64,000 bases of DNA, taken from Escherichia coli (GTDB taxonomy: Bacteria; Pseudomonadota; Gammaproteobacteria; Enterobacterales; Enterobacteriaceae). Shown piece after piece: positions 5,843 through 23,172 of this stretch. Position 1 is the stretch's first letter. Every line of letters begins with the position of its first letter. The DNA lies in assembly GCF_046105845.1 (NCBI RefSeq), contig NZ_CP151004.1, one strand, 5' to 3'. The translations under genes and the position numbers were made by a program. Below the pieces are notes generated by a model. That model saw only the letters and a list, made by a program, of their open reading frames with translations. It ran no database searches and had not been told where the DNA came from.

Positions 5843-6757
5843 TCACTCAAAATAGTCCATATCCAGTTTCGGCACCTTCAACAAACGTGAAGAAACCCCT
5901 ACTTCGTTTTCGATCATTAAGTGCACCAGGCGTTCCCCATCAACCAGCACCATACCCTCGACGGATTGGGCAAAGTCACGCGCCTGAGAAGTAAACCCAG
6001 AAGTGGTAATAAACACCCCACGTTTCGCTTTTTGCCCAGCCAGTGCGCCGTAAAATGCCTGTAATTCTGGCCTGCCTACAGTATTCTGCCAACGTTTTGC
6101 CTGAACATAAACTTTCTCCAGGCCAAGTTTATCAAGCGATATCACACCATCGATGCCACCATCTCCAGTACCGCCAACACGCTGCAAATCATCACGGTGG
6201 CCGCCATACCCCAGGCGATGCAAAACATCCAGAACAATGACTTCAAAGCGCGAAGGAGAAACCTGCAATAAGTTTTCCAGAACCTCATCAGCCACCGCAT
6301 CACGAAGCTCTTTTAGCGCCTGATCTAACCGATCGTCCGGGCTGCTCTTTGCAAGTTCTTCATGATCGGGAGAGTCGGCTTTCGGATCTAAATCGACGGC
6401 ATCCGGCCGTGACTTAAGTTTGACATTCACAAAAGCGAAGGCCAGATGGTTCGTCTCCTGCTCCGTCATTGGCTGGGGATGAGACGCAACCCAGTCAAAA
6501 CCCGCAGGAGTCAGGCACCATTTGCCACGCGACAAACTTTGCGACAACCCGGCACGTTTTAAACGGTCATGCGCCCAGCCTGCACGATTTTTATAAACAA
6601 GTTGTCCGCTGGTAATGACTTTCGCTCGCTGGCTGTCATCCAGTCCTAATGCATCCGCGGCAGCCTCATGAACATCACGCGCGGCTGCACCTTCCGGTTT
6701 TGTCGCCAGATAACGCAGAACAGGTTCAATAAATTTGTCATAGGTTGGAACCGTCAT
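5843..6757 (-). CDS. mrr: Type IV methylation-dependent restriction endonuclease Mrr (304 aa)
   Basis: Translation MTVPTYDKFIEPVLRYLATKPEGAAARDVHEAAADALGLDDSQRAK..., with an N-terminal winged-helix and C-terminal Mrr catalytic region; divergent from hsdR. Confidence 0.9.
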   Translation of the reverse strand: MTVPTYDKFIEPVLRYLATKPEGAAARDVHEAAADALGLDDSQRAKVITSGQLVYKNRAGWAHDRLKRAGLSQSLSRGKWCLTPAGFDWVASHPQPMTEQETNHLAFAFVNVKLKSRPDAVDLDPKADSPDHEELAKSSPDDRLDQALKELRDAVADEVLENLLQVSPSRFEVIVLDVLHRLGYGGHRDDLQRVGGTGDGGIDGVISLDKLGLEKVYVQAKRWQNTVGRPELQAFYGALAGQKAKRGVFITTSGFTSQARDFAQSVEGMVLVDGERLVHLMIENEVGVSSRLLKVPKLDMDYFE

Positions 6758-6944: not shown

Positions 6945-9900
6945 ATGATGAATAAATCCAACTTCGAATTCCTGAAGGGCGTCAACGACTTCACTTATGC
7001 CATCGCCTGTGCGGCGGAAAATAACTACCCGGATGATCCCAACACGACGCTGATTAAAATGCGTATGTTTGGCGAAGCCACAGCGAAACATCTTGGTATG
7101 TTACTCAACATCCCCCCTTGTGAGAATCAACACGATCTCCTGCGCGAACTCGGCAAAATCGCCTTCGTTGATGACAACATTCTCTCTGTATTCCACAAAT
7201 TACGCCGCATTGGTAACCAGGCGGTGCACGAATATCATAACGATCTCGACGATGCCCAGATGTGCCTGCGGCTAGGCTTCCGTCTGGCTGTCTGGTACTA
7301 CCGTCTGGTCACCAAAGATTATGACTTCCCGGTGCCGGTATTTGTGTTGCCGGAACGTGGCGAAAACCTCTATCACCAGGAAGTGCTGACGCTAAAACAA
7401 CAGCTTGAACAGCAGGCGCGAGAAAAAGCGCAGACTCAGGCAGAAGTCGAAGCGCAACAGCAGAAGCTGGTTGCCCTGAACGGCTATATCGCCATTCTGG
7501 AAGGCAAACAGCAGGAAACAGAAGCGCAAACCCAGGCTCGCCTTGCGGCGCTGGAAGCACAGCTTGCCGAGAAGAACGCGGAACTGGCAAAACAGACCGA
7601 ACAGGAACGTAAGGCTTACCACAAAGAAATTACCGATCAGGCCATCAAGCGCGCACTCAACCTTAGCGAAGAAGAGAGCCGCTTCCTGATTGACGCGCAA
7701 CTGCGTAAAGCAGGCTGGCAGGCCGATAGCAAAACCCTGCGCTTCTCCAAAGGCGCACGCCCGGAACCCGGCGTCAATAAAGCCATTGCCGAATGGCCGA
7801 CCGGGAAAGATGAAACGGGTAATCAGGGCTTTGCGGATTATGTGCTGTTTGTCGGCCTCAAGCCCATCGCGGTGGTAGAGGCGAAACGTAAAAATATCGA
7901 CGTTCCCGGCAAGCTCAATGAGTCGTATCGCTACAGCAAATGCTTCGATAATGGCTTCCTGCGGGAAACCTTGCTTGAGCATTACTCGCCGGATGAAGTG
8001 CATGAAGCGGTGCCGGAGTATGAAACCAGCTGGCAGGACACCAGCGGCCAACAACGGTTTAAAATCCCCTTCTGCTACTCGACCAACGGGCGCGAATACC
8101 GCGCAGCAATGAAGACTAAAAGTGGCATCTGGTATCGCGACGTGCGTGATACCCGCAATATGTCGAAAGCCTTACCCGAGTGGCATCGCCCGGAAGAGCT
8201 GCTGGAAATGCTCGGCAGCGAACCGCAAAAACAGAATCAGTGGTTTGCCGATAACCCTGGCATGAGCGAGCTGGGCCTGCGTTATTATCAGGAAGATGCT
8301 GTCCGCGCGGTGGAAAAGGCAATCGTCAAGGGTCAACAAGAGATCCTGCTGGCGATGGCGACCGGTACCGGTAAAACCCGTACCGCAATTGCCATGATGT
8401 TCCGCCTGATCCAGTCCCAGCGTTTTAAACGCATTCTCTTCCTTGTCGATCGCCGTTCTCTTGGCGAGCAGGCGCTGGGGGCGTTTGAAGATACGCGTAT
8501 TAACGGCGACACCTTCAACAGCATTTTCGACATTAAAGGTCTGACGGATAAATTCCCGGAAGACAGCACCAAAATTCACGTTGCCACCGTACAGTCGCTG
8601 GTGAAACGCACCCTGCAATCAGATGAACCGATGCCGGTGGCCCGTTACGACTGTATCGTCGTCGATGAAGCGCATCGCGGCTATATTCTCGATAAAGAGC
8701 AGACCGAAGGCGAGCTGCAATTCCGCAGCCAGCTGGATTACGTCTCTGCCTACCGTCGCATTCTCGATCACTTCGATGCGGTAAAAATCGCCCTCACCGC
8801 CACCCCGGCGCTGCATACGGTACAGATTTTCGGCGAGCCGGTTTACCGTTATACCTACCGTACCGCGGTTATCGACGGGTTTCTGATCGACCAGGATCCG
8901 CCTATTCAGATCATCACCCGCAACGCCCAGGAGGGGGTTTATCTCGCCAAAGGCGAGCAGGTTGAGCGCATCAGCCCACAGGGGGAAGTGATCAACGACA
9001 CCCTGGAAGACGATCAGGATTTTGAGGTCGCCGACTTTAACCGTGGCCTGGTGATCCCGGCGTTTAACCGCGCCGTCTGTAACGAACTCACCAACTACCT
9101 TGATCCGACCGGGTCACAAAAAACGCTGGTCTTCTGCGTCACCAATGCCCATGCCGATATGGTGGTGGAAGAGTTGCGTACCGCGTTCAAGAAAAAGTAT
9201 CCGCAACTGGAGCACGACGCGATCATCAAGATCACCGGTGATGCCGATAAAGACGCGCGCAAAGTGCAGACCATGATCACCCGCTTCAATAAAGAGCGGC
9301 TGCCCAATATCGTGGTAACCGTCGACCTGCTGACGACCGGCGTCGATATTCCGTCGATCTGTAACATCGTGTTCCTGCGTAAAGTACGCAGCCGTATTCT
9401 GTACGAGCAGATGAAAGGCCGCGCCACGCGCTTATGCCCGGACGTGAATAAAACCAGCTTTAAGATTTTCGACTGTGTCGATATCTACAGCACGCTGGAG
9501 AGCGTCGACACCATGCGTCCGGTGGTGGTGCGTCCGAAGGTGGAACTGCAAACGCTGGTCAATGAAATTACCGATTCAGAAACCTATAAAATCACCGAAG
9601 CGGACGGCCGTAGCTTTGCCGAGCACAGCCATGAACAACTGGTGGCGAAGCTCCAGCGCATCATCGGCCTGGCCACGTTTAACCGTGATCGCAGCGAAAC
9701 GATAGATAAACAGGTGCGTCGTCTGGATGAGCTATGCCAGGACGTGGCGGGGGTGAGCTTTAACGGCTTCGCCTCGCGCCTGCGGGAAAAAGGACCGCAC
9801 TGGAGCGCCGAAGTCTTTAACAAACTGCCTGGCTTTATCGCCCGCCTGGAAAAGCTGAAAACCGACATCAATAGCCTGAATGATGCGCCGATCTTCCTCG

Positions 9901-10457
9901 ATATTGACGATGAAGTGGTGAGCGTAAAATCGCTGTACGGTGATTACGACACGCCGCAGGATTTCCTCGAAGCCTTTGACTCGCTGGTGCAACGTTCCCC
10001 GAACGCGCAACCGGCATTGCAGGCGGTGATCAATCGCCCGCGCGATCTCACCCGTAAAGGGCTGGTTGAACTCCAGGAGTGGTTTGACCGCCAGCACTTT
10101 GAGGAATCTTCCCTGCGCAAAGCGTGGAAAGAGACGCGCAATGAAGATATCGCTGCCCGGCTGATTGGACATATTCGCCGCGCTGCGGTGGGCGATGCGC
10201 TGAAACCGTTTGAGGAACGTGTCGATCACGCGCTGACGCGCATTAAGGGCGAAAACGACTGGAGCAGCGAGCAATTAAGCTGGCTCGATCGTTTAGCGCA
10301 GGCGCTGAAAGAGAAAGTGGTGCTCGACGACGATGTCTTCAAAACCGGCAACTTCCACCGTCGCGGCGGGAAGGCGATGCTGCAAAGAACCTTTGACGAT
10401 AATCTCGACAACCTGCTTGATAAATTCAGCGATTATATCTGGGACGAGCTGGCCTGA
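6945..10457 (+). CDS. hsdR: Type I restriction enzyme R subunit HsdR (EcoKI family, type IA), 1170 aa
   Basis: N-terminus MMNKSNFEFLKGVNDFTYAIACAAENNYPDDP...; PD-(D/E)XK nuclease region followed by SF2 helicase motifs (LLAMATGTGKTRTAIA Walker A, VVDEAH DEAH box). Confidence 0.95.
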   Translation: MMNKSNFEFLKGVNDFTYAIACAAENNYPDDPNTTLIKMRMFGEATAKHLGMLLNIPPCENQHDLLRELGKIAFVDDNILSVFHKLRRIGNQAVHEYHNDLDDAQMCLRLGFRLAVWYYRLVTKDYDFPVPVFVLPERGENLYHQEVLTLKQQLEQQAREKAQTQAEVEAQQQKLVALNGYIAILEGKQQETEAQTQARLAALEAQLAEKNAELAKQTEQERKAYHKEITDQAIKRALNLSEEESRFLIDAQLRKAGWQADSKTLRFSKGARPEPGVNKAIAEWPTGKDETGNQGFADYVLFVGLKPIAVVEAKRKNIDVPGKLNESYRYSKCFDNGFLRETLLEHYSPDEVHEAVPEYETSWQDTSGQQRFKIPFCYSTNGREYRAAMKTKSGIWYRDVRDTRNMSKALPEWHRPEELLEMLGSEPQKQNQWFADNPGMSELGLRYYQEDAVRAVEKAIVKGQQEILLAMATGTGKTRTAIAMMFRLIQSQRFKRILFLVDRRSLGEQALGAFEDTRINGDTFNSIFDIKGLTDKFPEDSTKIHVATVQSLVKRTLQSDEPMPVARYDCIVVDEAHRGYILDKEQTEGELQFRSQLDYVSAYRRILDHFDAVKIALTATPALHTVQIFGEPVYRYTYRTAVIDGFLIDQDPPIQIITRNAQEGVYLAKGEQVERISPQGEVINDTLEDDQDFEVADFNRGLVIPAFNRAVCNELTNYLDPTGSQKTLVFCVTNAHADMVVEELRTAFKKKYPQLEHDAIIKITGDADKDARKVQTMITRFNKERLPNIVVTVDLLTTGVDIPSICNIVFLRKVRSRILYEQMKGRATRLCPDVNKTSFKIFDCVDIYSTLESVDTMRPVVVRPKVELQTLVNEITDSETYKITEADGRSFAEHSHEQLVAKLQRIIGLATFNRDRSETIDKQVRRLDELCQDVAGVSFNGFASRLREKGPHWSAEVFNKLPGFIARLEKLKTDINSLNDAPIFLDIDDEVVSVKSLYGDYDTPQDFLEAFDSLVQRSPNAQPALQAVINRPRDLTRKGLVELQEWFDRQHFEESSLRKAWKETRNEDIAARLIGHIRRAAVGDALKPFEERVDHALTRIKGENDWSSEQLSWLDRLAQALKEKVVLDDDVFKTGNFHRRGGKAMLQRTFDDNLDNLLDKFSDYIWDELA

Positions 10458-10658: not shown

Positions 10659-12248
10659 ATGAACAATAACGATCTGGTCGCGAAGCTGTGGAAGCTGTGC
10701 GACAACCTGCGCGATGGCGGCGTTTCCTATCAAAACTACGTCAATGAACTCGCCTCGCTGCTGTTTTTGAAAATGTGTAAAGAGACCGGACAGGAAGCGG
10801 AGTACCTGCCGGTAGGCTACCGCTGGGATGATCTGAAATCCCGTATCGGTCAGGAGCAGTTGCAGTTCTACCGTAACCTGCTGGTACATCTGGGCGCCGA
10901 CAATCAAAAGCTGGTGCAGGCGGTGTTCCAGAACGTCAACACCACCATTACCCAGCCGAAACAGTTGACCGAGCTGGTCAGCAATATGGATTCACTGGAC
11001 TGGTACAACGGTGCGCACGGTAAGTCGCGCGATGACTTCGGCGATATGTACGAAGGGCTGCTGCAGAAGAACGCCAACGAAACCAAGTCTGGCGCGGGCC
11101 AGTACTTCACCCCGCGTCCGCTGATTAAAACCATTATTCATCTGCTGAAACCGCAGCCGCGTGAAGTGGTGCAGGATCCGGCAGCAGGTACGGCGGGCTT
11201 TTTGATTGAAGCCGACCGCTACGTTAAGTCGCAAACCAATGATCTGGACGACCTTGATGGCGACACGCAGGATTTCCAGATCCACCGCGCCTTTATCGGC
11301 CTCGAACTGGTGCCCGGCACCCGTCGTCTGGCGCTGATGAACTGCCTGCTACACGATATTGAAGGCAACCTCGACCACGGCGGCGCAATCCGTCTGGGCA
11401 ACACCCTGGGTAGCGACGGTGAAAATCTGCCGAAGGCGCATATTGTCGCCACTAACCCGCCGTTTGGCAGCGCCGCAGGCACCAACATTACCCGCACCTT
11501 TGTCCACCCGACCAGCAACAAACAGTTGTGCTTTATGCAGCATATTATCGAAACGCTGCATCCCGGCGGTCGTGCGGCGGTAGTGGTGCCAGATAACGTG
11601 CTGTTTGAAGGCGGCAAAGGCACCGACATCCGTCGTGACCTGATGGATAAGTGTCATCTGCATACCATCCTGCGTCTGCCGACCGGTATTTTTTACGCTC
11701 AGGGCGTGAAAACTAACGTGCTGTTCTTTACCAAAGGGACGGTGGCGAACCCGCATCAGGATAAGAACTGCACCGATGATGTGTGGGTGTACGACCTGCG
11801 TACCAATATGCCGAGCTTCGGCAAGCGCACGCCGTTTACCGACGAGCATTTGCAGCCGTTTGAGCGCGTGTATGGCGAAGATCCCCACGGTTTAAGCCCG
11901 CGCACTGAAGGTGAATGGAGTTTTAACGCCGAAGAGACGGAAGTTGCCGACAGCGAAGAGAACAAAAACACCGATCAGCATCTGGCTACCAGCCGCTGGC
12001 GCAAGTTCAGCCGCGAGTGGATCCGCACCGCGAAATCCGATTCGCTGGATATCTCCTGGCTGAAAGATAAAGACAGTATTGATGCCGACAACCTGCCGGA
12101 GCCGGATGTATTAGCGGCAGAAGCGATGGGTGAACTGGTGCAGGCGCTGGGCGAACTGGATGCGCTGATGCGTGAACTGGGGGCGAGCGATGAGGCCGAT
12201 TTGCAGCGTCAGTTGCTGGAAGAAGCATTTGGTGGGGTGAAGGAATGA
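10659..12248 (+). CDS. hsdM: Type I restriction-modification N6-adenine DNA methyltransferase subunit HsdM (529 aa)
   Basis: MNNNDLVAKLWKLCDNLRDGGVSYQNYVNELASLLFLKM...; contains the NPPF catalytic motif (ATNPPFGSA) and an AdoMet-binding region. Confidence 0.95.
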   Translation: MNNNDLVAKLWKLCDNLRDGGVSYQNYVNELASLLFLKMCKETGQEAEYLPVGYRWDDLKSRIGQEQLQFYRNLLVHLGADNQKLVQAVFQNVNTTITQPKQLTELVSNMDSLDWYNGAHGKSRDDFGDMYEGLLQKNANETKSGAGQYFTPRPLIKTIIHLLKPQPREVVQDPAAGTAGFLIEADRYVKSQTNDLDDLDGDTQDFQIHRAFIGLELVPGTRRLALMNCLLHDIEGNLDHGGAIRLGNTLGSDGENLPKAHIVATNPPFGSAAGTNITRTFVHPTSNKQLCFMQHIIETLHPGGRAAVVVPDNVLFEGGKGTDIRRDLMDKCHLHTILRLPTGIFYAQGVKTNVLFFTKGTVANPHQDKNCTDDVWVYDLRTNMPSFGKRTPFTDEHLQPFERVYGEDPHGLSPRTEGEWSFNAEETEVADSEENKNTDQHLATSRWRKFSREWIRTAKSDSLDISWLKDKDSIDADNLPEPDVLAAEAMGELVQALGELDALMRELGASDEADLQRQLLEEAFGGVKE

Positions 12249-13615
12249 GTGCGGAGAAATTGCCGGAGGGGTGGGTTGAGTGTGAATTATCCGAACTCGG
12301 TAACATTGTTACAGGGAAAACTCCCAGTACCAAGGAGCCTTCCAATTTTGGAGGCAGCATTCCTTTCATTAAACCAGGCGATCTTGATCTCGGTGGCTAT
12401 ATCATGAATACCGCCGATACTCTGACGGAGAAAGGGTTATCTCTTGTCCCCACTCTTCCTGCCAATTCAGTCGTTGTGACGTGTATTGGAAATTTAGGAA
12501 AAGTTGGAATTACCGCTAAAAAATCAGCATCTAATCAACAAATAAATGCATTGATCCCGTCAGAAAAGCTAAATGTAAAATTTGTTTATTACCAAATTTT
12601 AACATTAAAACCATGGTTAGAGTCTCAATCAGCAGCTACTACAATTGCGATTGTGAACAAGAGCAAATTTTCTCAGGCACCATTTAAATTCCCGTCGCTT
12701 GCCGAACAAAAAATCATCACTGAAAAACTCGATACGCTGCTGGCGCAGGTAGACAGCACCAAAGCACGTCTTGAGCAAATCCCACAAATCCTGAATCGTT
12801 TTCGTCAGGCTATTCTAGCTAATGCTGTGGAAGGAAAATTGACCGACGAATGGCGAGCCGGAAAATGTTATATTACAGAAATCAAAAAAATATCTGATAT
12901 TATTCAGAATGCTCAAGTCGGATTAGTTCGTTCAGCTTCAGATCAAAGCGAAATATGCACTCAAAAAATGAGAACGCCTTATATAAAAATGAATAACATT
13001 CACAATGTTCTCGGAACAAATTTAGAAAAACTCGCTTATGTCAACTGTGATAGCTATGAACTGGAAAAATATAGATTAAAAAATGGAGATTGGCTCTTTA
13101 ATACACGAAATAGTTATGAGTTAGTTGGTAAATCCTGTGTCTGGAATGGATGTAGCAATGCTGTATATAATAATAATATATTAAGAGTTAGACTAAAAGA
13201 AAACTACAATTCTGTTTTTTTAGATTATTGGTTTCACTCGTTCTATGGAGTGAGCATGCTTAATAGTATTAAATCCGCAACAACAAATGTTGCTGCGATA
13301 TATCAGAAAGAACTCTTAAGTAAAAGTGTTCCATTCCCCCCCCTTCCCGAACAAGCCGAGATTGTTCGCCGCGTCGAACAACTCTTCGCCTACGCCGACA
13401 CCATAGAAAAACAGGTCAACAACGCCTTAGCCCGCGTTAACAACCTGACGCAATCCATCCTGGCAAAAGCGTTCCGTGGTGAACTCACCGCCCAGTGGCG
13501 GGCCGAAAACCCGGATTTAATCAGCGGAGAAAACAGCGCCGCCGCGTTGCTGGAAAAAATCAAAGCTGAACGCGCAGCCAGCGGGGGTAAAAAAGCCTCG
13601 CGTAAAAAATCCTGA
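12245..13615 (+). CDS. hsdS: Type I restriction-modification specificity subunit HsdS (456 aa) with divergent AT-rich target-recognition domains
   Basis: ATGA start/stop overlap with hsdM. The conserved central (LAEQKIITEKLDTLLAQVDSTKARLEQIPQIL) and C-terminal (LPEQAEIVRRVEQLFAYADTIEKQVNNALARVNNLTQSILAKAFRGELTAQWR) regions frame two variable segments of visibly lower GC content. Confidence 0.9.
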   Translation: MSAEKLPEGWVECELSELGNIVTGKTPSTKEPSNFGGSIPFIKPGDLDLGGYIMNTADTLTEKGLSLVPTLPANSVVVTCIGNLGKVGITAKKSASNQQINALIPSEKLNVKFVYYQILTLKPWLESQSAATTIAIVNKSKFSQAPFKFPSLAEQKIITEKLDTLLAQVDSTKARLEQIPQILNRFRQAILANAVEGKLTDEWRAGKCYITEIKKISDIIQNAQVGLVRSASDQSEICTQKMRTPYIKMNNIHNVLGTNLEKLAYVNCDSYELEKYRLKNGDWLFNTRNSYELVGKSCVWNGCSNAVYNNNILRVRLKENYNSVFLDYWFHSFYGVSMLNSIKSATTNVAAIYQKELLSKSVPFPPLPEQAEIVRRVEQLFAYADTIEKQVNNALARVNNLTQSILAKAFRGELTAQWRAENPDLISGENSAAALLEKIKAERAASGGKKASRKKS

Positions 13616-13627
13616 TCATTATTTTCT

Positions 13628-13655
13628 GGCGCACCTTTCCGGTGCGCTTTTTATT
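13628..13655 (+). terminator. Rho-independent terminator after hsdS
   Basis: Hairpin GGCGCACC-TTTCC-GGTGCGC followed by TTTTTATT. Confidence 0.6.
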
Positions 13656-13749
13656 ATTTTACGCCAATCATAACTCACGCAAATATATTTAAATCATTCC
13701 AGAAATTGCCTATTTTATTCTATTTTTAGCTGGACTTTCCCTGTATTTA

Positions 13750-13765
13750 CTGATGATATATCCAG
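13750..13765 (+). promoter_or_regulatory. Putative LexA box (SOS operator) in the symE promoter
   Basis: CTGATGATATATCCAG against the consensus CTGT-N8-ACAG (2 mismatches), about 90 bp upstream of the symE start. symE is a known SOS-induced gene. Confidence 0.4.
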
Positions 13766-13771
13766 GTATTT

Positions 13772-13848
13772 AGCGCGGTGCGGATGTGCGCCAACACACC
13801 CGCACCGCTCATCACAATCACTATTCCAGGAGAATAGCAGTTATGACT
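13772..13848 (-). ncRNA. symR: Probable SymR antisense sRNA overlapping the symE 5' UTR, RBS and start codon (coordinates approximate)
   Basis: Placed from established knowledge of the symE/SymR arrangement (a ~77-nt cis-antisense RNA covering the symE translation initiation region). The inverted repeat GCGGTGCGG...CCGCACCGC at 13776..13809 lies within it. Exact ends are not determinable from sequence alone. Confidence 0.35.
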
Positions 13849-14184
13849 GACACGCATTTTATTGCACAACCGTTCGAAGCAGAAGTCTCCCCGGCAAATA
13901 ACCGTCAATTAACCGTGAGTTATGCGAGCCGCTACCCGGATTACAGCCGTATTCCCGCCATCACCCTGAAAGGTCAGTGGCTGGAAGCCGCCGGTTTTGC
14001 CACCGGCACGGCGGTAGATGTCAAAGTGATGGAAGGCTGTATTGTCCTCACCGCCCAACCCCCCGCCGCTGAAGAGAGCGAACTGATGCAGTCGCTGCGC
14101 CAGGTGTGCAAACTGTCGGCGCGTAAACAAAAGCAGGTGCAGGCGTTTATTGGAGTGATTGCCGGTAAACAGAAAGTCGCGTAA
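13843..14184 (+). CDS. symE: SOS-induced toxin-like protein SymE (113 aa; AbrB/SpoVT-fold endoribonuclease-like)
   Basis: [52 protein letters not shown]..., with AGGAG RBS upstream of the ATG at 13843. The ORF track start at 13786 is an upstream in-frame extension. Confidence 0.85.
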
Positions 14185-14345
14185 CAGCGTTTACTCCCGG
14201 TTAACCACCGGGAGCCTTCCACTGACTCAATAGAAACTTTCCCCCTCAGTAAATATTTACCTGCCTGATTGTGCAGTAAAAATCTATTGTTTCAGTACGT
14301 TGCGAAAGCGATAATAGAGGCTTAGCAATGAGGAAGGCACATCTT

Positions 14346-15725
14346 ATGGAATCAATTCAAGCCTGGATTGAAAAATTTATTGAGCAAGCACAGCAACAAA
14401 GTTCGCAATCCACTAAAGATTATCCAACGTCTTACCGTAACCTGCGAGTAAAAGTGAGTTTCGGTTATGGCAATTTTACATCTATTCCCTGGTTTGCATT
14501 TCTTGGAGAAGGTCAGGAAGTTTCTAACGGTATATATCCCGTTATTCTCTATTATAAAGATTTTGATGAGTTGGTTTTGGCTTATGGTATAAGTGACACG
14601 AATAAACCACATGCACAATGGCACTTTTCTTCTGACATACCTAAAACAATCGCAGAGTATTTCCAGGCAACTTCAGGTGTATATCCTAAAAAATACGGAC
14701 AGTCCTATTACGCCTGTTCCCAAAAAGTCTCACAGGGTCTTGATTATACCCGGCTTGCCTCCATGCTGGACAACATAATCAACGACTATAAATTAATATT
14801 TAATTCTGGCAAGAGTGTTATTCCACCTATGTCAAAAACTGAATCATACTGTCTGGAAGATGCGTTAAATGATTTGTTTATCCCTGAAACCACAATAGAG
14901 ACGATACTCAAACGATTAACCATCAAAAAAAATATTATCCTCCAGGGGCCGCCCGGCGTTGGAAAAACCTTTGTTGCACGCCGTCTGGCTTACTTGCTGA
15001 CAGGAGAAAAGGCTCCGCAACGCGTCAATATGGTTCAGTTCCATCAATCTTATAGCTATGAGGATTTTATACAGGGCTATCGTCCGAATGGTGTCGGCTT
15101 CCGACGTAAAGACGGTATATTTTACAATTTTTGTCAGCAAGCTAAAGAGCAGCCAGAGAAAAAGTATGTTTTTATTATAGATGAAATTAATCGTGCCAAT
15201 CTCAGTAAAGTATTTGGCGAAGTGATGATGTTAATGGAACATGATAAACGAGGTGAAAACTGGTCTGTTCCCTTAACCTACTCCGAAAACGATGAAGAAC
15301 GATTCTATGTCCCGGAGAATGTTTATATTATCGGTTTAATGAATACTGCCGATCGCTCTCTGGCCGTTGTTGATTATGCCCTGCGCAGACGATTTTCTTT
15401 CATAGATATTGAGCCAGGTTTTGATACACCACAGTTCCGGAATTTTTTACTGAATAAAAAAGCAGAACCTTCATTTGTTGAGTCTTTATGCCAAAAAATG
15501 AACGAGTTAAACCAGGAAATCAGCAAAGAGGCCACTATCCTTGGGAAAGGATTCCGCATTGGGCATAGTTACTTCTGCTGTGGGTTGGAAGATGGCACCT
15601 CTCCGGATACGCAATGGCTTAATGAAATTGTGATGACGGATATCGCCCCTTTACTCGAAGAATATTTCTTTGATGACCCCTATAAACAACAGAAATGGAC
15701 CAACAAATTATTAGGGGACTCATAG
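14346..15725 (+). CDS. mcrB: 5-methylcytosine-specific restriction enzyme McrB (GTPase / AAA+ DNA-binding subunit), 459 aa
   Basis: MESIQAWIEKFIEQAQQQSSQSTKDYPTSYRNLRVK..., with GPPGVGKT Walker A and a DEIN Walker B-like motif. AT-rich composition. Confidence 0.93.
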   Translation: MESIQAWIEKFIEQAQQQSSQSTKDYPTSYRNLRVKVSFGYGNFTSIPWFAFLGEGQEVSNGIYPVILYYKDFDELVLAYGISDTNKPHAQWHFSSDIPKTIAEYFQATSGVYPKKYGQSYYACSQKVSQGLDYTRLASMLDNIINDYKLIFNSGKSVIPPMSKTESYCLEDALNDLFIPETTIETILKRLTIKKNIILQGPPGVGKTFVARRLAYLLTGEKAPQRVNMVQFHQSYSYEDFIQGYRPNGVGFRRKDGIFYNFCQQAKEQPEKKYVFIIDEINRANLSKVFGEVMMLMEHDKRGENWSVPLTYSENDEERFYVPENVYIIGLMNTADRSLAVVDYALRRRFSFIDIEPGFDTPQFRNFLLNKKAEPSFVESLCQKMNELNQEISKEATILGKGFRIGHSYFCCGLEDGTSPDTQWLNEIVMTDIAPLLEEYFFDDPYKQQKWTNKLLGDS

Positions 15726-16771
15726 TGGAACAGCCCGTGATACCTGTCCGTAATATCTATTACATGCTTACCTATGCATGGGGTTATTTACAGGACATTA
15801 AGCAGGCCGACCTTGAAGCCATACCCGGTAACAATCTTCTTGATATCCTGGGGTATGTATTAAATAAAGGGGTTTTACAGCTTTCACGCCGAGGGCTTGA
15901 GCTTGATTACAATCCTAATACCGAGATCATTCCTGGCATCAAAGGGCGAATAGAGTTTGCTAAAACAATACGCGGCTTCCATCTTAATCATGGGAAAACC
16001 GTCAGTACTTTTGATATGCTTAATGAAGACACGCTGGCTAACCGAATTATAAAAAGCACATTAGCCATATTAATTAAGCATGAAAAGTTAAATTCAACTA
16101 TCAGAGATGAAGCTCGTTCACTTTATAGAAAATTACCGGGCATTAGCACTCTTCATTTAACTCCGCAGCATTTCAGCTATCTGAACGGCGGAAAAAATAC
16201 GCGTTATTATAAATTCGTTATCAGTGTCTGCAAATTCATCGTCAATAATTCTATTCCAGGTCAAAACAAAGGACACTACCGTTTCTATGATTTTGAAAGA
16301 AACGAAAAAGAGATGTCATTACTTTATCAAAATTTTCTTTTTGAATTTTGCCGTCGTGAATTACCATCTGTAAATACAACTCGCCCACATTTAAAATGGG
16401 ATGCATCAAGCATATCGGATCAATCACTTAGCTTGTTACCTCGAATGGAAACTGACATCACCATTAACTCATCAGGGAAAATACTTATCGTTGATGCCAA
16501 ATACTATAAAAGCATTTTTTCACGACGAATGGGTACAGAAAAGTTTCATTCTCAAAATCTATATCAACTGATGAGTTACTTATGGTCGTTAAAGCCTGAA
16601 AATGGCGAAAAAACAGGGGGGTTATTAATATACCCACACGTAGACACCTCAGTGAAACATCGTTATAAAATTAATGGCTTCGATATTGGCTTGTGTACCG
16701 TCAATTTAGGTCAGGAATGGCCGTGTATACATCAAGAATTACTCGACATTTTCGGTGAATATCTCAAATAA
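15725..16771 (+). CDS. mcrC: 5-methylcytosine-specific restriction enzyme McrC (nuclease subunit), 348 aa, GTG start overlapping the mcrB stop by 1 nt
   Basis: Reading from the GTG at 15725 gives (M)EQPVIPVRNIYYMLTYAWGYLQDIKQ...; a PD-(D/E)XK-type region (ILIVDAKYYK) lies near the C-terminus. The ORF track start (15695) is an upstream in-frame extension. Confidence 0.9.
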   Translation: MEQPVIPVRNIYYMLTYAWGYLQDIKQADLEAIPGNNLLDILGYVLNKGVLQLSRRGLELDYNPNTEIIPGIKGRIEFAKTIRGFHLNHGKTVSTFDMLNEDTLANRIIKSTLAILIKHEKLNSTIRDEARSLYRKLPGISTLHLTPQHFSYLNGGKNTRYYKFVISVCKFIVNNSIPGQNKGHYRFYDFERNEKEMSLLYQNFLFEFCRRELPSVNTTRPHLKWDASSISDQSLSLLPRMETDITINSSGKILIVDAKYYKSIFSRRMGTEKFHSQNLYQLMSYLWSLKPENGEKTGGLLIYPHVDTSVKHRYKINGFDIGLCTVNLGQEWPCIHQELLDIFGEYLK

Positions 16772-16827: not shown

Positions 16828-19800
16828 TCAGGAGGCGATCACCTCCACCAGCACATCCGTTGCCCAACTCTCTTCGCTGTTGGCGACATTCCCTTCCTTG
16901 CAGGCCTGAGCCATTTTGACTAACTGGAAAGAAACGTCATCGCGGAAATCAAAGTAATGCCATTGCGATGCAAAGTTGATGCGCCAGTAGCCCATCCCCT
17001 GATCGAAGCGGATCTTCAATACCTGACCATCATCAAAAGTCACCGTCAGTTTACGATGGTGAGGGATATCGCGCGGCGAGTCGAACACCGTCAGTTCTAC
17101 CGGCCTGCCCAGCGCAGCAGCAAACCACTGATCAGCGAAATCCTGAAAATCCGCTATGCTCATCCAGTCATGGAAAGGCCGGTTACCGGGGCGATCTTTA
17201 TCTTTAAATAGCGTATCCAGCGTCACTTCAGCGCCATCGGTCAGCTTTGTTTTTAGCGGTCTCAAAATTGATCCCAACAACGCCAGCGCAACCGGGTTTT
17301 GCAGATAGCGATCGGTATAGTGAACGCCGGTAATTCGCGTGTTATTCATCAGTGACTGCGCTTCTTCATGGTCGTTAAACAGCACGTCCCAGAAGCGTTG
17401 CCCAAACTGCGACAGTGGTCCATTCAACTGTTTGTGGATCTGAATGTCTTTGACCCGCTCGACAGCGTTGGCGGCTTTAGCCGGCAGAATAAATTCGTTC
17501 AGCTCTACCGTTTTATAGCCGAGACTACGTACCACCAGTTCGTCATTCAGGTGCCACTCCGGCCCCGGAATCGTTGCCTGCTGGCTACGAGAGGCCAGCG
17601 TCATCACGCGATCGGCAAAGGTGACCTGAGCAACGATCGGTAATTTCAAATCCTGTTCAACATGGCATAGCCGCACACCCAGCGCAGTAAATTGCGATAG
17701 TTCGTGCAACAGGTCCGGGTCATCCACTCCCGCAGGAATAACAAGATCGACCTCGACGTTGTCTTTTAGCCGATAGTTCTGAACCGCCGCGCGGAACTGA
17801 CGTGCGTATAAATCCCACTCATTGGGCGCGCCGGTCATCCACAGGGTGAGCTTTTCAGCGCCTTCGTTAATCGCCCGGCGAATCGTATCGCCAATGGCGC
17901 CAGGGCAGTAGCGGGCATCCGGCAGCGAGAATGTCTCTTCATCCGGTAAACCGATGTAATACGTGAAGTCATCGCCAAGCCAGGCCAGCGCCGCTTTGCG
18001 ATCCAGCAAATCGTGATCGTGGCGAGTCTGGGAATCAAGCAGGCATTCACTACATGCAGTCTCACAATGGCGGCAGCCTAACTGTTTCACCATTCCCTGC
18101 AATATAGCTTCAATGTGTACCGGTGCGCTGGAGGCAAAACCTGCACCACCGCTGATCACATCATAAAGCTGTACGGCTAATACCGATTGCCCATCCTCCA
18201 GTCTGACCGGACGTACAGAATAGCCGAGTTCTGCGGCGGAGATACCCAGAACGCCCGCCAGCGCCTGACGCAGAGCAACCGCCAGAGTCATGGCAACAAT
18301 CCGCCCCTCCTCTGTGTTATCTGGCAGATACTCGCCGTTTTGCGGTTTGCGCAGAACCATTTCAAAGACATCGGTGCGCGCCAGTGCGCCCAGGGTGACG
18401 TTCTTCATGAGTGCCGTCGAACCGGGGCAAATCAGACGATGATTCTGGCTATCGCGGTCCGCTTTACCCGGACGCGGTGGATAGTGAGCTTCCATGCTTT
18501 TCGGCGCATCATTTTCATTCAGCATCGACTCAGCACGGCCACAGCTCAGACACAATGCATAACCGTGTCCACCTTCCCCCAAACTTTGCTGGAAAACATG
18601 CCCATCAGCCCCAGAAGCCATATAACCCATTAGCGGGTTAGGCAACGGTACGGGCTCTGCTTTAACAAAGACCCACGCGGGGACAACCGGGACGAATTTC
18701 ATGGTTTCAATATTGTTCGTTACCGGAGCGTGTGCATCGGTGACAAACCCGGCAGGCTGCAGCACCTGACGGCGATTATCCATGATTATTTTTTCGCCGC
18801 AGGCGCTATTGGAGCAAAAGAGCATCCCGGAACTGCTCATCCCCTCTTCATAGCCAATGGTCCCGCATTTGTGACAGCGCCAGGCGCAATCCAGACGCTG
18901 GGCTTCATTGGTATCAGCATTAATGTTGTGCCAGTGCAGTGAGACACCGGCAGAGCGGAAGACACGGCCATCAAGAATGATCTCTGCTCCCGGTGCATAT
19001 TCACGAATGGCAACACCGAGGTTACGGGAAGGTAATCCTTTATAACGGGAGACGTTATCTTCACGGTCCTTTTTATCACGACTTTTTTGCGATTTTTCGC
19101 GGATATAATCTTCCATTGTGAAGTTATCAAACGTCACTACATCTGTCGGGAAACCGTATCCCGGCAAGAAGGTTCTGGCAGCTAGATCGCGCAGCAGATA
19201 CTCGCCACAGTGCCGTTTCTTCTCCAGCTCTATGCGCTTACGATAAGGCGTTTGCGGCTGCGACTCACGCTCCTGTGTCACGAGATCGCGATAAACGGAG
19301 AGCCACCGCTGCTGCAGGAAGGTGATCGCGTTGATTGTTTTATCCCGCAGATATTCGGCTCTTGCACCATGCAACGCCGTACCTTTCACCAGCCGTTCCA
19401 GCGCCGTGTCGATATCAAGAACAGGGCGTTCCAGCCAGACTTTGAAGCGTTCGCATTTTGACTGCCCGTCATCTTCACCGAAAAACCAGAGGCTATCGAG
19501 GCTGGTTTTCTCTTTATCGGTTTCGCCAATAACGTTACATAAAAAGTCGGACAGTAATAATGCATTGACGTGACGTTGCACCAGTCGGGCGGAGTTCATC
19601 GCGACCATGGGTGCCGGGATCATGGTTTCAAATGGCCAGAGCGGGTTGGCAAAAACCTGCTGGTCGTGTGGGTTACCTTTACATAGGGTGTAAGAGATCG
19701 CACGTGATTCTTTACTACGCCCGGCTCGCCCGGCGCGCTGTAAATAGTTGGCCGGATGTGGCGGTACGTTGTTCATTACCACCGCAGTAATGCCCCCGAT

Positions 19801-22800
19801 ATCAACCCCCATTTCCATGGTGGTGGAACAGTTGAGAACATTTAGTTGCCCATTCTTGAACATCTTTTCATAGCTTTGCAGACGTTCTGACGACTGCTGG
19901 GCAGAGTGCTCGGCAGTGCGATAGTAGAAACCGCCTTCCACGACACGATCGTTGATGTCTGTCCAGACGTTTTCCGACCGCAATTGTGCGATCAGCGGAT
20001 CATTGCTGACCCAGTCGCGTGCTTTTGCCAGACCCTCTGCGTAGTCTTCCTGTGAACGATCCAGCTTCCAGATTTCCGGCATGGTGACTTTCTGCGCGAC
20101 AAAAGTGTCATATTGCGCCTGGGTAAGATGCTCGAACGAAATATGGGTAGGCAGATAAGGGGTTAAGCCTTTAAAAGCCGTATCCAGGATTTTATTGGTT
20201 ACCGGGCAAATCCAGGCATCCGTGATTAATGAAAAAGTCATATGCTCTTTCGGTAAATAAAAACGGTTGCCATCGGGTTTCAGTACTGCAAGCGGTCCGG
20301 TAAGTTGGGCCCATGCTTCTTTCAGCCATGTATTGATAATATCAATAGTCGCCGTATTGACGGTTTTGAATCCAGCCCCCAGCATCAGTAACTTCGCTAA
20401 ACGATGGGATACGTTGCCATTACGAATTTGAGGCCAGCGTCTGTTCTGATTATCTTCAGGATCTTTTGATTCCGGGTTACGGACGAATTTTGATGAAAAA
20501 CGGCTACCGATCCAGTTTTTCAGCTCATCATCCAGCTGTGTGAAGTTGCTCTCACGAACGTAATGATCCAGCGTAACTTTGAGAAAATCGCGCCAGTCAT
20601 CCAGCGTTAATCCTTTTTCCTGCCAGTGCAGAGGGATCTTATGTATTTTCTCCAGCCCCAGGTAACCAACCTGAACCAGCCCTTGTGTTTCCAGGCTGTT
20701 AGTCCGTTTAGGGCGACGCATGAATTCCCGGAATAACAACATTTCCGAAAGCTTTAGAGGCCCGCCGTTTTCATTAAACACTTCAGGCTTAAGATAATGG
20801 TTATATTGCAGAACCGGGCCACGGATATCGGCTCTCTCTTTAAGCTCGTTAACCATTTCTGTCCAGGTTCGGGATACCAGAGTAATTGCAGCTTTTCCAC
20901 CGATTGCAGACTGGTAAGCCTGTTCAAGCTGCTCGGCCTGCGCTTCTGATAATTTCGCTTGATCCGGCAATCCCCAGCTTCGATATTCTTCTGCCTGCTC
21001 ACGGGCTTGCTTTACCCTGGTCGCTAATTTTTCCAGATCGGCATTAGCGTTCGGCGCCGTGGGCGTTTGCGTTCGTTGATGCCAGCTCAGAATTTCGACT
21101 ACGCTTCCGCGTAAGCGACTACGTTCTGCTTCTTGCTGCATACGCACCGCCATCCGGGCTGTCCCTTGTCGACTATCCGTAAAGGTAATGAGTCGACGTC
21201 CTCGCCCTGGCAACGAATCTGGTCCGACGCCCTCTTTGCCTTCATCACTGGCAAAGTCCTGACAATACTCAAGAACGGTAGGCACGATGTTAGTAACGTA
21301 AAATGGCCCACCTAATAATGCACGCCGAAAGGGTTGTTTTCCGCTCATGCCTCGGTAGCCACAGCCGCTGGCGCTACAAACCTGTTCAATATCATTAATA
21401 ATCAGCGGAATGCTGTCATTATTAATAACGCCAATACGGCGCGTCTGACGGTCGAGGCGTTGTAGGGTATAGCCTGTCTCGCTGGTCTCTCCTGCGGCAA
21501 TAATCAACGGAGGCTGGAAACTGTTCTCTTTTTCGACTTTTTCCTCTGTAGTGTCATGTTCAACAGGTACTTCATCCTGCAAGGAGAACTCATCGCCACC
21601 TTTATTTTCCCATTGGACAAGTTTGCCCTTTTTGTCCTGCGCCAGAAGATGAGGCTCATTACAATCATTACAGAACGCCACTTCGTATACAGGGCTTCCA
21701 CAGTCACAATTTTGTCGCTGGTTCACATACACATAGCCAAAGGGCCAGCCTTTTTCGAGCGGTGTACCGTGCTTTAATCTGCAATCTTTATCAACACAAG
21801 CCCATATTCCCTGGGTATTACGCTGGAAGATATGCGCCCTGACTTTAAGAAATGCGGGATCCTTTGCATTAGGTTGAGTCCCTGAACAGACATCGATCCA
21901 ACGCAGTACTTCCTGCTGGCTGTAATGCTGTTTTGTCAGCACGTTTAACCGCTCTGTTATCTCATCCAGCTTCATCGGATTGGGCTGTTTGACCAACATC
22001 TCACGTATGTAACGCGCTTCGGGGGAATGCGTAAGCGCATAAAAGCGATCAGGACTTATACCTTTAATTTTATTATCATTTTTATCTCTTAGATCCAGAT
22101 CGGGTATTTGCTCTATTTCGTCTAACGGAAGAGAAACGTTTTTGGATGGTTCCAGTTCAGGAATCACCCGACTTCCGTCCAGAACATCGATGCGCTCCTT
22201 CGGGATACCGGATAATTCAGAGAGAAATTTTTTCAGCTGCTTTTCGACGTCGCTGCCGGCAATGGTCGCAGAGGTCGCTACAAAGCGCACATCATCTGGC
22301 GTCACGCCAAACGCTGTCATCACACGACGCAGCTGGAGCGCCAGTTCAGCGGCCTGCGACCCGACATAGGTATGCGCTTCATCCAGTACAATCCAGCGTA
22401 GTGATTTTTGTGCTTTGGATTGCTGGATAATCGGGGCGTCGACCTGGCGAACCATCATATATTCCAGCATCGTGCCGTTGGTCACCAGAATCGGGGCAGG
22501 TTCTTCACGCATTTTTTCGCGCGAGAGCACCTCATTCGGCCTTTTTGCCTGTTCGCTTTTTACCGAAGCGTGTAGGTTTTCGGTGTTACCGTTGTAAAGG
22601 CAGTAGCGGATCCCGGTACCAAAACCACGCGTCCAGGCATCCAGACGCTCGCGCTGTGAATTAATCAGGGCGTTCAATGGATAGAGAAAAAGGGCTCGGA
22701 CACCGACCAACGGATTGTTGCCATTTTCATGCAGTTCCCGGTAAAGATCTTCCAGCACCGGTACCATAAAACATTCCGTTTTACCTGAACCCGTACCACT

Positions 22801-23172
22801 GGTTACCACCACTGAATGTTTCTTTTCCAGCAAAGCTTTCCAACTGGCTAACTGGTGTGTAAAAGGCTTCCAGTCAGCACCAAATCGGTACCGGCCATTA
22901 CTCTGATCATCCAGTGAATCAACCACTGCTTTGCTCAACAATGCGTTGCCTTCCGTCAGACTGCGCATCGTGTGGTTTGACTCCTTCCAGCCAAACATTT
23001 GCTGGAATACCGGAGAAGCAAGGAATGAGCCCGGTTTCCCACAATCAGCCCCCATTTGTTGCGCGAGATGTTCACGCAGCTGCGGGTTGGTTACGCCCAT
23101 GATACTGAGCGTTGCTTCAGTTGAACGAGACAACGATTGTTCAATAAGTGACGAAAAATAGCGTGTAGTCAT
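16828..23172 (-). CDS. druE: Giant (2114 aa) SF2 DEAH-box helicase with MrfA-type Zn-binding (DUF1998/MZB-like) Cys clusters; candidate Druantia type III DruE-like defense helicase
   Basis: Walker [10 protein letters not shown] (~22780..22800), DEAH box VLDEAHTY (~22367..22384), SAT motif, motif [10 protein letters not shown] (~19718..19741), Cys4 clusters CHKCG...CSNSACG and [11 protein letters not shown] (~18040..18880). Forms an operon with the 1112-aa gene upstream (12-bp gap). The DruE name is inference from size, architecture and locus, not a verified hit. Confidence 0.75.

What the first reader, a model, noticed from the sequence alone, without database searches (positions are those of the whole stretch)
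12245..13615. hsdS allele with divergent, AT-rich target-recognition domains – specificity probably differs from EcoKI
HsdR and HsdM read as canonical EcoKI-family (type IA) sequences, and the HsdS central and C-terminal conserved regions match that family. The two TRD segments (roughly 12300..12690 and 12850..13330) are much more AT-rich than the flanking hsd genes and differ from the EcoKI TRDs as I recall them. The recognised bipartite sequence is therefore likely to be different from AAC(N6)GTGC.
Basis: partly seen in the sequence, partly recalled or inferred. Interest (0 to 1): 0.5.

Follow-up and report, generated by a model that had tools for sequence, protein, structure and literature searches.

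The report
Rare shuffled hsdS specificity allele
This is an intact specificity gene of an ordinary E. coli EcoKI-family restriction system. Its two DNA-reading modules are a rare, shuffled combination unrelated to those of EcoKI, so the enzyme almost certainly targets a different DNA sequence that could not be identified here.

Summary
Window 12245..13615 (+) is an intact 456-aa hsdS, translationally coupled to hsdM, in the E. coli mrr-hsdRMS-symE-mcrBC defence locus. HsdR and HsdM are 98.5% and 97.4% identical to EcoKI. The HsdS conserved regions match EcoKI without indels (central 81%, C-terminal 98%). The two target-recognition domains are only 19% and 23% identical to EcoKI's. They also match none of the TRDs of EcoBI, EcoUTI89I or EcoCFTI/EcoAI.

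AT-richness is real (GC 0.40 and 0.32, against 0.56 for hsdM). It is generic to all type IA hsdS alleles, so it is not diagnostic.

The allele is a module shuffle. TRD1 is widespread in Enterobacterales and pairs with at least 13 different TRD2s, including EcoKI's. TRD2 is rare and pairs with 4 TRD1s. The full allele is in 3 of 5426 complete E. coli genomes, and the exact protein is on about 100 public contigs.

A 2.9-kb mismatch-free tract around hsdS, in about 2.8%-diverged flanks, shows recent recombinational transfer.

The recognition sequence cannot be read from sequence. I predict a bipartite m6A site that is not AAC(N6)GTGC, with the type IA methyl interval of 8.

This is textbook biology and of low interest.

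The parts
6945..10457 (+). hsdR, type IA restriction/translocase subunit (1170 aa, intact)
   Evidence: ORF. 98.5% aa identity to EcoKI HsdR. NCBIfam NF008521 scores 1743 bits against a cutoff of 729.
10659..12248 (+). hsdM, type IA m6A methyltransferase subunit (529 aa, intact)
   Evidence: ORF. 97.4% aa identity to EcoKI HsdM. Its stop codon overlaps the hsdS start.
12245..13615 (+). hsdS, specificity subunit (456 aa, intact)
   Evidence: ORF. Two Pfam Methylase_S domains. AF2 model with mean pLDDT 88.3, matching S-subunit structures over its full length. The exact protein (P0286) is on at least 97 public contigs.
12278..12694 (+). TRD1 (aa 12-150), predicted reader of the 5' half-site
   Evidence: 19% identical to EcoKI TRD1, 16% to EcoBI, 23% to EcoUTI89I. 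Found at >=97.8% identity with 13 different TRD2 families. dN/dS 0.08 against allele P0150. GC 0.396.
12695..12856 (+). Central conserved region: first coiled-coil helix and crossover zone
   Evidence: 81% identical to EcoKI with no indels. Helix 152-195 in the model. The second half (RFRQAILANAVEGKLTDEWR) travels with TRD2 in alleles P0152-P0154.
12857..13342 (+). TRD2 (aa 205-366), predicted reader of the 3' half-site
   Evidence: 23% identical to EcoKI and EcoBI TRD2, 32% to EcoUTI89I TRD2. Present in only 3 of 5426 complete E. coli genomes. Found at >=95% with 4 different TRD1s. The next-best relative is 63% identical. dN/dS 0.18 against P0154. GC 0.319.
13343..13612 (+). C-terminal conserved region: second coiled-coil helix and tail
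   Evidence: 98% identical to EcoKI with no indels. Helix 367-410 in the model.
11526..14405 (.). Mismatch-free tract shared with pig E. coli HCP5S3_I2; inferred recent recombination patch carrying hsdS
   Evidence: The distance between the two bounding mismatches is 2,879 bp. The background outside the tract has 2.8% mismatches, giving P of about 3e-36 for such a run. hsdS is 0/1371 different in 8 loci whose mcrBC flanks differ from the window by 0-74 mismatches.
12884..12890 (+). A7 homopolymer inside TRD2; site of a naturally occurring frameshift
   Evidence: The A7->A6 change gives the 226-aa product P0287, found on 9 contigs including ETEC1738.
13336..13343 (+). C8 homopolymer at the TRD2/C-terminal junction; site of a naturally occurring frameshift
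   Evidence: The C8->C7 change gives the 386-aa product P0151, found on 2 contigs, and is also present in ETEC1738. The tract is present in all five alleles carrying this TRD2. The UTI89 allele has C7 at the same position.

Best explanation
This is a functional hsdS allele of a chromosomal type IA (EcoKI-family) restriction-modification system.

How the system works (established knowledge, not tested here). HsdS joins two HsdM to form the M2S methyltransferase, and two HsdR to form the R2M2S restriction enzyme. Each TRD reads one half of a bipartite target. The two conserved helices (aa 152-195 and 367-410) form the antiparallel coiled coil that fixes the distance between the half-sites.

What follows for this allele (inference). 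Both TRDs are unrelated to those of EcoKI. The enzyme should therefore methylate and restrict a bipartite sequence other than AAC(N6)GTGC. The conserved helices have no indels relative to EcoKI, so I predict the type IA spacing of 8 nt between the two methylated adenines. That means a 3-5 bp half-site, N6-N8, and a 4-5 bp half-site.

Origin. The allele arose by the classical route: homologous crossover in the conserved regions reassorts TRD modules. The whole cassette then moved between E. coli lineages by recombination through the conserved hsdM and symE/mcrB flanks.

Shown here: gene integrity, family membership, TRD divergence, modular reassortment and the recombination tract.
Inferred: enzymatic activity, altered specificity and spacing.
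For: - Gene integrity: intact ORF translationally coupled to hsdM, with intact hsdR and hsdM 97-98% identical to EcoKI.
- Fold: two Methylase_S domains. The AF2 model has pLDDT 88.3, both TRDs mostly above 90, and two 44-residue helices. Its best structural matches are full-length S subunits 2y7c, 1yf2, 7vs4, 5ybb and 3okg.
- Conserved regions: 81% and 98% identical to EcoKI without gaps.
- TRD divergence: 16-32% identity to the eight TRDs of EcoKI, EcoBI, EcoUTI89I and EcoCFTI.
- Modularity: TRD1 occurs with 13 TRD2 families, including EcoKI's own TRD2 in P0155. TRD2 occurs with 4 TRD1s.
- Purifying selection: dN/dS is 0.08 for TRD1 and 0.18 for TRD2.
- Conservation: the identical protein is on at least 97 contigs, listed in 217 index blocks, always in the same operon.
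- Transfer: a 2,879-bp mismatch-free tract in a 2.8%-diverged background, with identical hsdS in at least 4 flank haplotypes.
- Literature: each TRD specifies one half-site, crossovers in the central conserved region create new specificities, and all type IA enzymes have a Me-interval of 8 (PMC3874165). An hsdS swap alone switches type IA specificity in vivo (PMC8287963).
Against: - No methylome or restriction assay is available, so activity and specificity are inferred only.
- RefSeq (PGAP) annotates the identical sequence as two partial pseudogenes. I read this as an artefact because the ORF is continuous and in frame.
- Frameshifted derivatives exist in some strains: A7->A6 on 9 contigs and C8->C7 on 2 contigs. 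The allele is therefore not maintained everywhere.
- Between near-identical TRD2 alleles, all 3-5 differences are nonsynonymous. The numbers are too small to interpret.
- REBASE could not be searched, so the specificity may already be known.
Confidence: 0.85

Rival explanations
1. The gene is a decayed, non-functional chimera, as the RefSeq annotation of the identical sequence suggests (two partial pseudogenes). On this reading the strain has no active type I specificity.
For: PGAP marks the identical DNA in HCP5S3_I2 and LCP30S3_I5 as two 'incomplete' S-subunit fragments. Frameshifted variants occur in other strains. NCBIfam NF007278 scores 469 bits against a cutoff of 662.
Against: The two PGAP fragments are in the same frame and overlap (locus 9001-9480 and 9454-10371), and the ORF has no stop or frameshift. 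The protein has the full S1-D1-S2-D2 architecture with a confident model. dN/dS is 0.08-0.18. The exact protein is conserved on at least 97 contigs in several flank backgrounds. The sub-cutoff NCBIfam score is expected for any allele with non-EcoKI TRDs.
Confidence: 0.07
2. The allele is functional, but its recognition sequence is one already catalogued. It would then be the same as a characterised type I enzyme not available to me (EcoDI, StyLTIII, or a REBASE/SMRT-derived enzyme), and nothing about its specificity would be new.
For: The protein is on at least 97 public contigs, including Mb-scale chromosomes, and E. coli is heavily SMRT-sequenced. TRD1 is common across Enterobacterales at 70-100% identity, so its half-site has probably been seen. 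Loenen's Table 1 already listed about 40 specificities in 2013.
Against: TRD2 is very rare. It is in 3 of 5426 complete genomes. Among 5.8 billion protein clusters, only 5 of the listed full-length S-subunit representatives plus one fragment are near-identical, and the next-best relative is 63%. Neither TRD matches any of the eight characterised TRDs I could test. No paper was found on the carrier strains.
Confidence: 0.4
3. The homopolymer tracts inside hsdS (C8 at 13336-13343, A7 at 12884-12890) make the specificity subunit phase-variable by slipped-strand mispairing, switching restriction and methylation on and off.
For: Both tracts show natural one-base deletions that truncate HsdS. hsdR and hsdM have no run of 7 or more. 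The C8 tract is conserved in all alleles with this TRD2.
Against: Intact copies far outnumber frameshifted ones (at least 97 contigs against 9 and 2). The 9 A6 contigs may be a single clone. ETEC1738 carries both deletions, which looks like decay or long-read homopolymer error rather than reversible switching. The C run is simply Pro-Pro codons and is C7 in the constitutively active UTI89 enzyme. There are no inverted repeats, spare hsdS copies or recombinase nearby. Mismatch-repair-proficient E. coli is not known to use 7-8-nt tracts for phase variation (my own knowledge).
Confidence: 0.04

Closest known systems
EcoKI (type IA R-M system of E. coli K-12; AAC(N6)GTGC)
   Same: Same chromosomal locus and gene order (mrr-hsdR-hsdM-hsdS-symE-mcrBC). 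HsdR is 98.5% and HsdM 97.4% identical. The HsdS N-terminus, central region (81%) and C-terminal region (98%) are conserved with no indels. The hsdM/hsdS overlap is the same.
   Different: Both TRDs are unrelated (19% and 23% identity), so the predicted DNA target differs. HsdS is 456 aa against 464 aa.
StySQ / StySJ (natural and laboratory type IA hybrids made by crossover between StySB and StySP hsdS)
   Same: Same mechanism for generating a new allele: reassortment of the N-terminal and C-terminal TRDs by crossover in the central conserved region (PMC3874165). Here TRD1 is found with 13 TRD2s and TRD2 with 4 TRD1s.
   Different: The parental TRDs here are different modules of unknown half-site specificity. 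The event is inferred from population data, not observed.
EcoUTI89I / Eco646I group (type IA; CCA(N7)CTTC)
   Same: Another type IA allele with EcoKI-like HsdR and HsdM and about 45% identical HsdS. It was shown experimentally to be active and to switch specificity by hsdS swap alone (PMC8287963). It has a poly-C run (C7) at the same TRD2/C-terminal junction.
   Different: TRD1 is 23% and TRD2 32% identical to the window's, so the modules differ. It is much commoner: the paper cites 104 systems in REBASE.
Alleles P0152 (E. albertii), P0153 and P0154 (E. coli), and P0155 (TRD1 + EcoKI TRD2)
   Same: They share one module with the window allele at 95-100% identity, in the same operon context.
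   Different: The other TRD is unrelated. All are uncharacterised. Together they would allow the two half-sites to be assigned by comparing methylomes.

Membership tests
Type IA (EcoKI-family) type I R-M system | HsdR and HsdM amino-acid sequences closely similar to EcoKI/EcoBI (families are defined by complementation, antibody cross-reactivity and sequence; PMC3874165) | tested here: met
   HsdR 98.5% and HsdM 97.4% identical to K-12, with the same lengths. NF008521 scores 1743 bits against a cutoff of 729.
Type IA (EcoKI-family) type I R-M system | HsdS domain order S1-D1-S2-D2, with family-specific central and C-terminal conserved regions | tested here: met
   Methylase_S x2. Central region 81% and C-terminal region 98% identical to EcoKI without gaps. 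Model helices at 152-195 and 367-410. Foldseek top hit is the EcoKI S model 2y7c.
Type IA (EcoKI-family) type I R-M system | Allelic chromosomal position in the immigration control region between mrr and symE/mcrBC | tested here: met
   Window gene order matches K-12, REL606 and UTI89. The same order is seen in all carrier contigs.
Type IA (EcoKI-family) type I R-M system | Genetic complementation with EcoKI subunits / antibody cross-reactivity | not testable with these tools
   Requires an experiment. It is expected from the 97-98% identity of HsdM and HsdR and the near-identical HsdS conserved regions.
Type IA (EcoKI-family) type I R-M system | Bipartite m6A target with 8 nt between the methylated adenines (Me-interval 8 for all five type IA enzymes in Loenen Table 1) | not testable with these tools
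   Predicted from indel-free conserved helices. Needs a methylome.
EcoKI specificity (AAC(N6)GTGC) / NCBIfam NF007278 equivalog | TRDs homologous to EcoKI TRD1 (AAC) and TRD2 (GTGC); whole-protein score above the curated cutoff | tested here: not met
   TRD1 19% and TRD2 23% identical. NF007278 scores 469 bits against a cutoff of 662. No blastn similarity to the K-12 TRDs.
Other characterised E. coli specificities (EcoBI TGA(N8)TGCT; EcoUTI89I CCA(N7)CTTC; EcoCFTI/EcoAI GAG(N7)GTCA) | A TRD sharing high identity with a TRD of known half-site | tested here: not met
   Best matches are 16-32% identity. EcoDI, StyLTIII, StySPI and REBASE entries could not be tested.
Phase-variable type I systems (inverton or SSR type) | Multiple hsdS copies with inverted repeats and a recombinase, or a hypermutable repeat tract with frequent reversible length change | tested here: inconclusive
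   No inverted repeats of 20 nt or more, no tandem repeats, no second hsdS and no recombinase. The A7 and C8 tracts do show rare natural frameshifts: 9 and 2 contigs against at least 97 intact.

The most novel reading that the evidence does not exclude
The TRD1 + TRD2 combination specifies a bipartite recognition sequence that no characterised type I enzyme has. In particular, the very rare TRD2 module reads a half-site not yet assigned to any TRD. Its closest relative outside the near-identical alleles is 63% identical, and its distant relatives are in non-enteric metagenomes. A weaker, more speculative add-on is that the C8 and A7 tracts that travel with TRD2 make this allele unusually prone to on/off loss.
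Probability: 0.5. Interest if true: 0.25.

Novelty: new member of a known kind. Interest (0 to 1): 0.2.

Why it matters
The practical value is modest. A strain carrying this allele will restrict DNA prepared in K-12 or B cloning hosts at an unknown site, and its methylome will carry an extra bipartite m6A motif. Knowing the motif would help in transforming such strains, which here are pig-associated and ETEC-related E. coli.

As population biology, the locus is a clean natural example of two textbook processes. One is combinatorial TRD shuffling in the central conserved region. The other is transfer of a specificity cassette between lineages by homologous recombination through conserved flanks.

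It also exposes an annotation weakness. RefSeq/PGAP records the intact gene as two partial pseudogenes, so surveys that rely on annotation will undercount functional type I specificities.

None of this changes how type I systems are understood.

Tried and rejected
- AT-richness as a signal of something special. Rejected: EcoKI, EcoBI, EcoUTI89I and a further allele all have TRDs at GC 0.31-0.42 with GC-normal conserved regions.
- Naming the half-sites by homology. The PDB sequence search gave only EcoKI (conserved regions) and remote S subunits. The eight TRDs of EcoKI, EcoBI, EcoUTI89I and EcoCFTI gave 32% identity or less. Database names for all homologues are generic ('restriction endonuclease subunit S'). 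Structure comparison confirms the fold but cannot give sequence specificity.
- Literature on carrier strains (HKUOPY1, Res13-Lact-PER13-34, ETEC1738, HCP5S3_I2, LCP30S3_I5). There was one irrelevant hit. A search for E. albertii type I methylome papers found nothing.
- Pseudogene reading from the RefSeq annotation. Rejected because the ORF is continuous and the two annotated pieces are in the same frame.
- Inverton-type or SSR-type phase variation. No inverted repeats, tandem repeats or extra hsdS copies were found. The homopolymer tracts are kept only as a low-probability rival.
- dN/dS against the distant homologue P0156. The first attempt was invalid (ungapped comparison, offset by indels) and was not pursued, because dS would be saturated at 56-65% aa identity.
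- EcoDI, StyLTIII/StySPI and REBASE entries could not be obtained with the available collections.
Full report
**What is there**

Window 12245..13615 (+) is a single uninterrupted ORF of 456 codons. It lies in the E. coli 'immigration control region'. The gene order is:
- mrr (5843..6757, -)
- hsdR (6945..10457, +)
- hsdM (10659..12248, +)
- hsdS (12245..13615, +)
- symE
- mcrB (14328..15725, +)
- mcrC (15695..16771, +)

This is the order annotated in K-12, REL606, UTI89 and the closest complete genomes. The hsdS ATG overlaps the hsdM stop (ATGA) and is preceded by AAGGA, so the two genes are translationally coupled as in K-12.

**Checking the observation**

HsdR and HsdM are 98.5% and 97.4% identical to the EcoKI subunits and have the same lengths. 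HsdS is 45% identical overall, and the identity is sharply segmented:

| Segment | Residues | Identity to EcoKI |
|---|---|---|
| N-terminus | 1-11 | 91% |
| TRD1 | 12-150 | 19% |
| Central conserved region | 151-204 | 81% |
| TRD2 | 205-366 | 23% |
| C-terminal region | 367-456 | 98% |

The two conserved regions align with EcoKI without a single gap.

GC is 0.396 in TRD1 and 0.319 in TRD2, against 0.559 for hsdM and 0.552 for the hsdS C-terminal region. However, the AT-richness is a family trait. EcoKI, EcoBI, EcoUTI89I and a fourth allele have TRDs at GC 0.31-0.42 flanked by GC-normal conserved regions. It does not distinguish this allele.

**Is it a real, complete S subunit?**

- Pfam finds two Methylase_S domains, at residues 7-180 (E = 1e-27) and 237-395 (E = 3e-9).
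- An AlphaFold2 model built on 49 homologues has mean pLDDT 88.3. Both TRDs are mostly above 90, and there are two 44-residue helices (152-195 and 367-410).
- Foldseek aligns the model over its full length to the EcoKI S model 2y7c, the M. jannaschii S subunit 1yf2, the PacII S subunit and the T. tengcongensis S subunit.
- dN/dS is 0.08 for TRD1 (against allele P0150) and 0.18 for TRD2 (against P0154).

RefSeq nevertheless annotates the identical DNA in two pig isolates as two 'partial' S-subunit pseudogenes. The two pieces overlap, are in the same frame, and the ORF is continuous. I read this as an artefact of aligning a chimeric protein to two different reference proteins. The sub-threshold score against the NCBIfam EcoKI-HsdS equivalog (469 bits against a cutoff of 662) has the same cause.

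**How unusual is it?**

- The full allele occurs in 3 of 5426 complete E. coli genomes, all pig isolates.
- With a blastn search sensitive to about 65-70% identity, TRD1 is found in 5 of those genomes and TRD2 in only 3. K-12, B, UTI89 and CFT073 are in that set. None of their TRDs resembles these at the DNA level.
- At the protein level, the best matches to the eight TRDs of EcoKI, EcoBI, EcoUTI89I (CCA(N7)CTTC) and EcoCFTI/EcoAI (GAG(N7)GTCA) are 16-32%.
- The allele is not unique. The exact protein is in NCBI and UniRef under generic names. It is on at least 97 contigs, listed in 217 index blocks, and always in the same operon.

**Modular structure**

Among the 120 best full-length homologues, TRD1 recurs at 97.8% identity or more with 13 different TRD2 families. 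One of these is EcoKI's own GTGC-reading TRD2 (P0155). TRD1 also recurs at 70-91% identity in Salmonella, Klebsiella, Enterobacter, Citrobacter, Proteus and others.

TRD2 is much rarer. At 95% identity or more it occurs in five full-length representatives (one of them a frameshifted copy of the window allele) plus one short fragment. It is paired with four different TRD1s: the window/P0150 type, one from E. albertii (P0152) and two more from E. coli (P0153, P0154). The next-best relatives are 63% (Enterobacter hormaechei) and 57% identical.

The second half of the central conserved region (RFRQAILANAVEGKLTDEWR) co-segregates with TRD2. This places the crossover in the first dimerisation helix, exactly where the classical StySB x StySP crossovers that produced StySQ and StySJ were mapped (PMC3874165).

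**Recent transfer**

Against the best complete-genome match (HCP5S3_I2), the surrounding 19 kb differs at 2.8% of positions outside one tract. The tract is a 2,879-bp stretch with no mismatch at all (window 11526-14405). It covers the last third of hsdM, all of hsdS, symE and the start of mcrB. The probability of such a run at the background rate is about 3e-36.

In eight independent loci hsdS is 0/1371 different from the window. The adjacent 2.2 kb of mcrBC differs from the window by 0, 30, 36, 65-66 or 74 positions. The same cassette therefore sits in several chromosomal backgrounds. It has moved by homologous recombination through conserved flanks.

**Mechanism and prediction**

By established knowledge of type I enzymes:
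- Each TRD reads one half-site independently.
- The coiled coil formed by the two conserved regions sets their spacing (PMC3874165).
- Exchanging hsdS alone between type IA systems switches methylation and restriction specificity in vivo (PMC8287963).

I therefore infer that this allele directs the EcoKI-type M2S and R2M2S complexes to a bipartite target that is not AAC(N6)GTGC. All five type IA enzymes in Loenen's Table 1 have 8 nt between the methylated adenines, and the conserved helices here are indel-free relative to EcoKI. I predict the same interval, with a spacer of N6-N8 depending on where the adenines sit. The actual bases cannot be derived from sequence with the tools available.

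**Rival readings**

- Pseudogene: about 0.07. It is contradicted by the intact frame, the fold, purifying selection and conservation.
- Functional, but with a specificity already catalogued: about 0.4. This concerns novelty only and is compatible with the main explanation.
- Homopolymer-driven phase variation: about 0.04. hsdS contains A7 (12884-12890) and C8 (13336-13343) tracts. One-base deletions in them occur naturally, as P0287 on 9 contigs and P0151 on 2 contigs. ETEC1738 carries both. Intact copies dominate, the C run is just Pro-Pro codons, and the constitutively active UTI89 enzyme has C7 at the same spot. These look like ordinary inactivating mutations.

**Verdict**

The finding is correct and its interpretation is sound, but it describes the normal biology of the hsd locus. 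This is a rare, reassorted and recently transferred type IA hsdS allele of unknown, non-EcoKI specificity. It is a new member of a known kind and of low interest. The useful by-products are the clean recombination tract and the RefSeq mis-annotation.

Noticed in passing
window 12245-13615; L001 9001-10371 (NZ_CM149870.1): RefSeq/PGAP annotates DNA 100% identical to this intact 456-aa ORF as two overlapping, in-frame 'partial' S-subunit pseudogenes. This is an annotation artefact that removes the protein from RefSeq protein sets.
   Followed up: yes
window 11526-14405: A 2,879-bp mismatch-free tract against pig strain HCP5S3_I2, embedded in about 2.8% divergence. The same hsdS (0/1371 differences) sits in at least 4 different mcrBC flank haplotypes.
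   Followed up: yes
window 12884-12890 (A7), 13215-13221 (T7), 13336-13343 (C8): Homopolymer runs occur only in hsdS; hsdR and hsdM have none of 7 or more. Natural one-base deletions at A7 (226-aa product, 9 contigs) and C8 (386-aa product, 2 contigs) truncate HsdS. The C8 tract travels with the TRD2 module, and UTI89 has C7 at the same junction.
   Followed up: partly
window 12857-13342 (TRD2), codons 304 and 338: Between the window and the near-identical TRD2 alleles P0150, P0152 and P0153, all 3-5 differences are nonsynonymous and none is synonymous. The window has private S304 (N in all four others) and M338 (I in three). The numbers are too small to test for selection.
   Followed up: partly
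window 16828-23172 (-) and 23185-26523 (-): Two intact giant ORFs match PADLOC DruE3 (2697 bits, full length) and DruH3 (1829 bits). This is a Druantia type III defence pair (yjiV/yjiT) next to mcrBC. In K-12 yjiV is a pseudogene.
   Followed up: partly
L019 5001-9066 (Logan SRR36525904 contig): A metagenomic type I system has an HsdS (P0156, also 456 aa) carrying distant versions of both TRDs in the same combination (TRD1 65%, TRD2 57%). It is followed by an AAA_21/SMC_N ATPase gene and a 364-aa ORF with no Pfam hit. It may reflect a non-enteric source of the module pair.
   Followed up: no
window 40223-45463 (+): A 1746-aa ORF whose N-terminal half matches the inverse autotransporter adhesin IatC/intimin family, below the curated cutoff (1121 bits against 2400).
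   Followed up: no
window 1-25000: The best match in 5426 complete E. coli genomes is only about 97.9% identical over 25 kb. The window's host is therefore not closely represented among complete RefSeq genomes. A metagenome scaffold (ERZ28598633, L004) matches the hsdM-mcrC part with a single mismatch, all other differences lying in the hsdR 3' end.
   Followed up: partly
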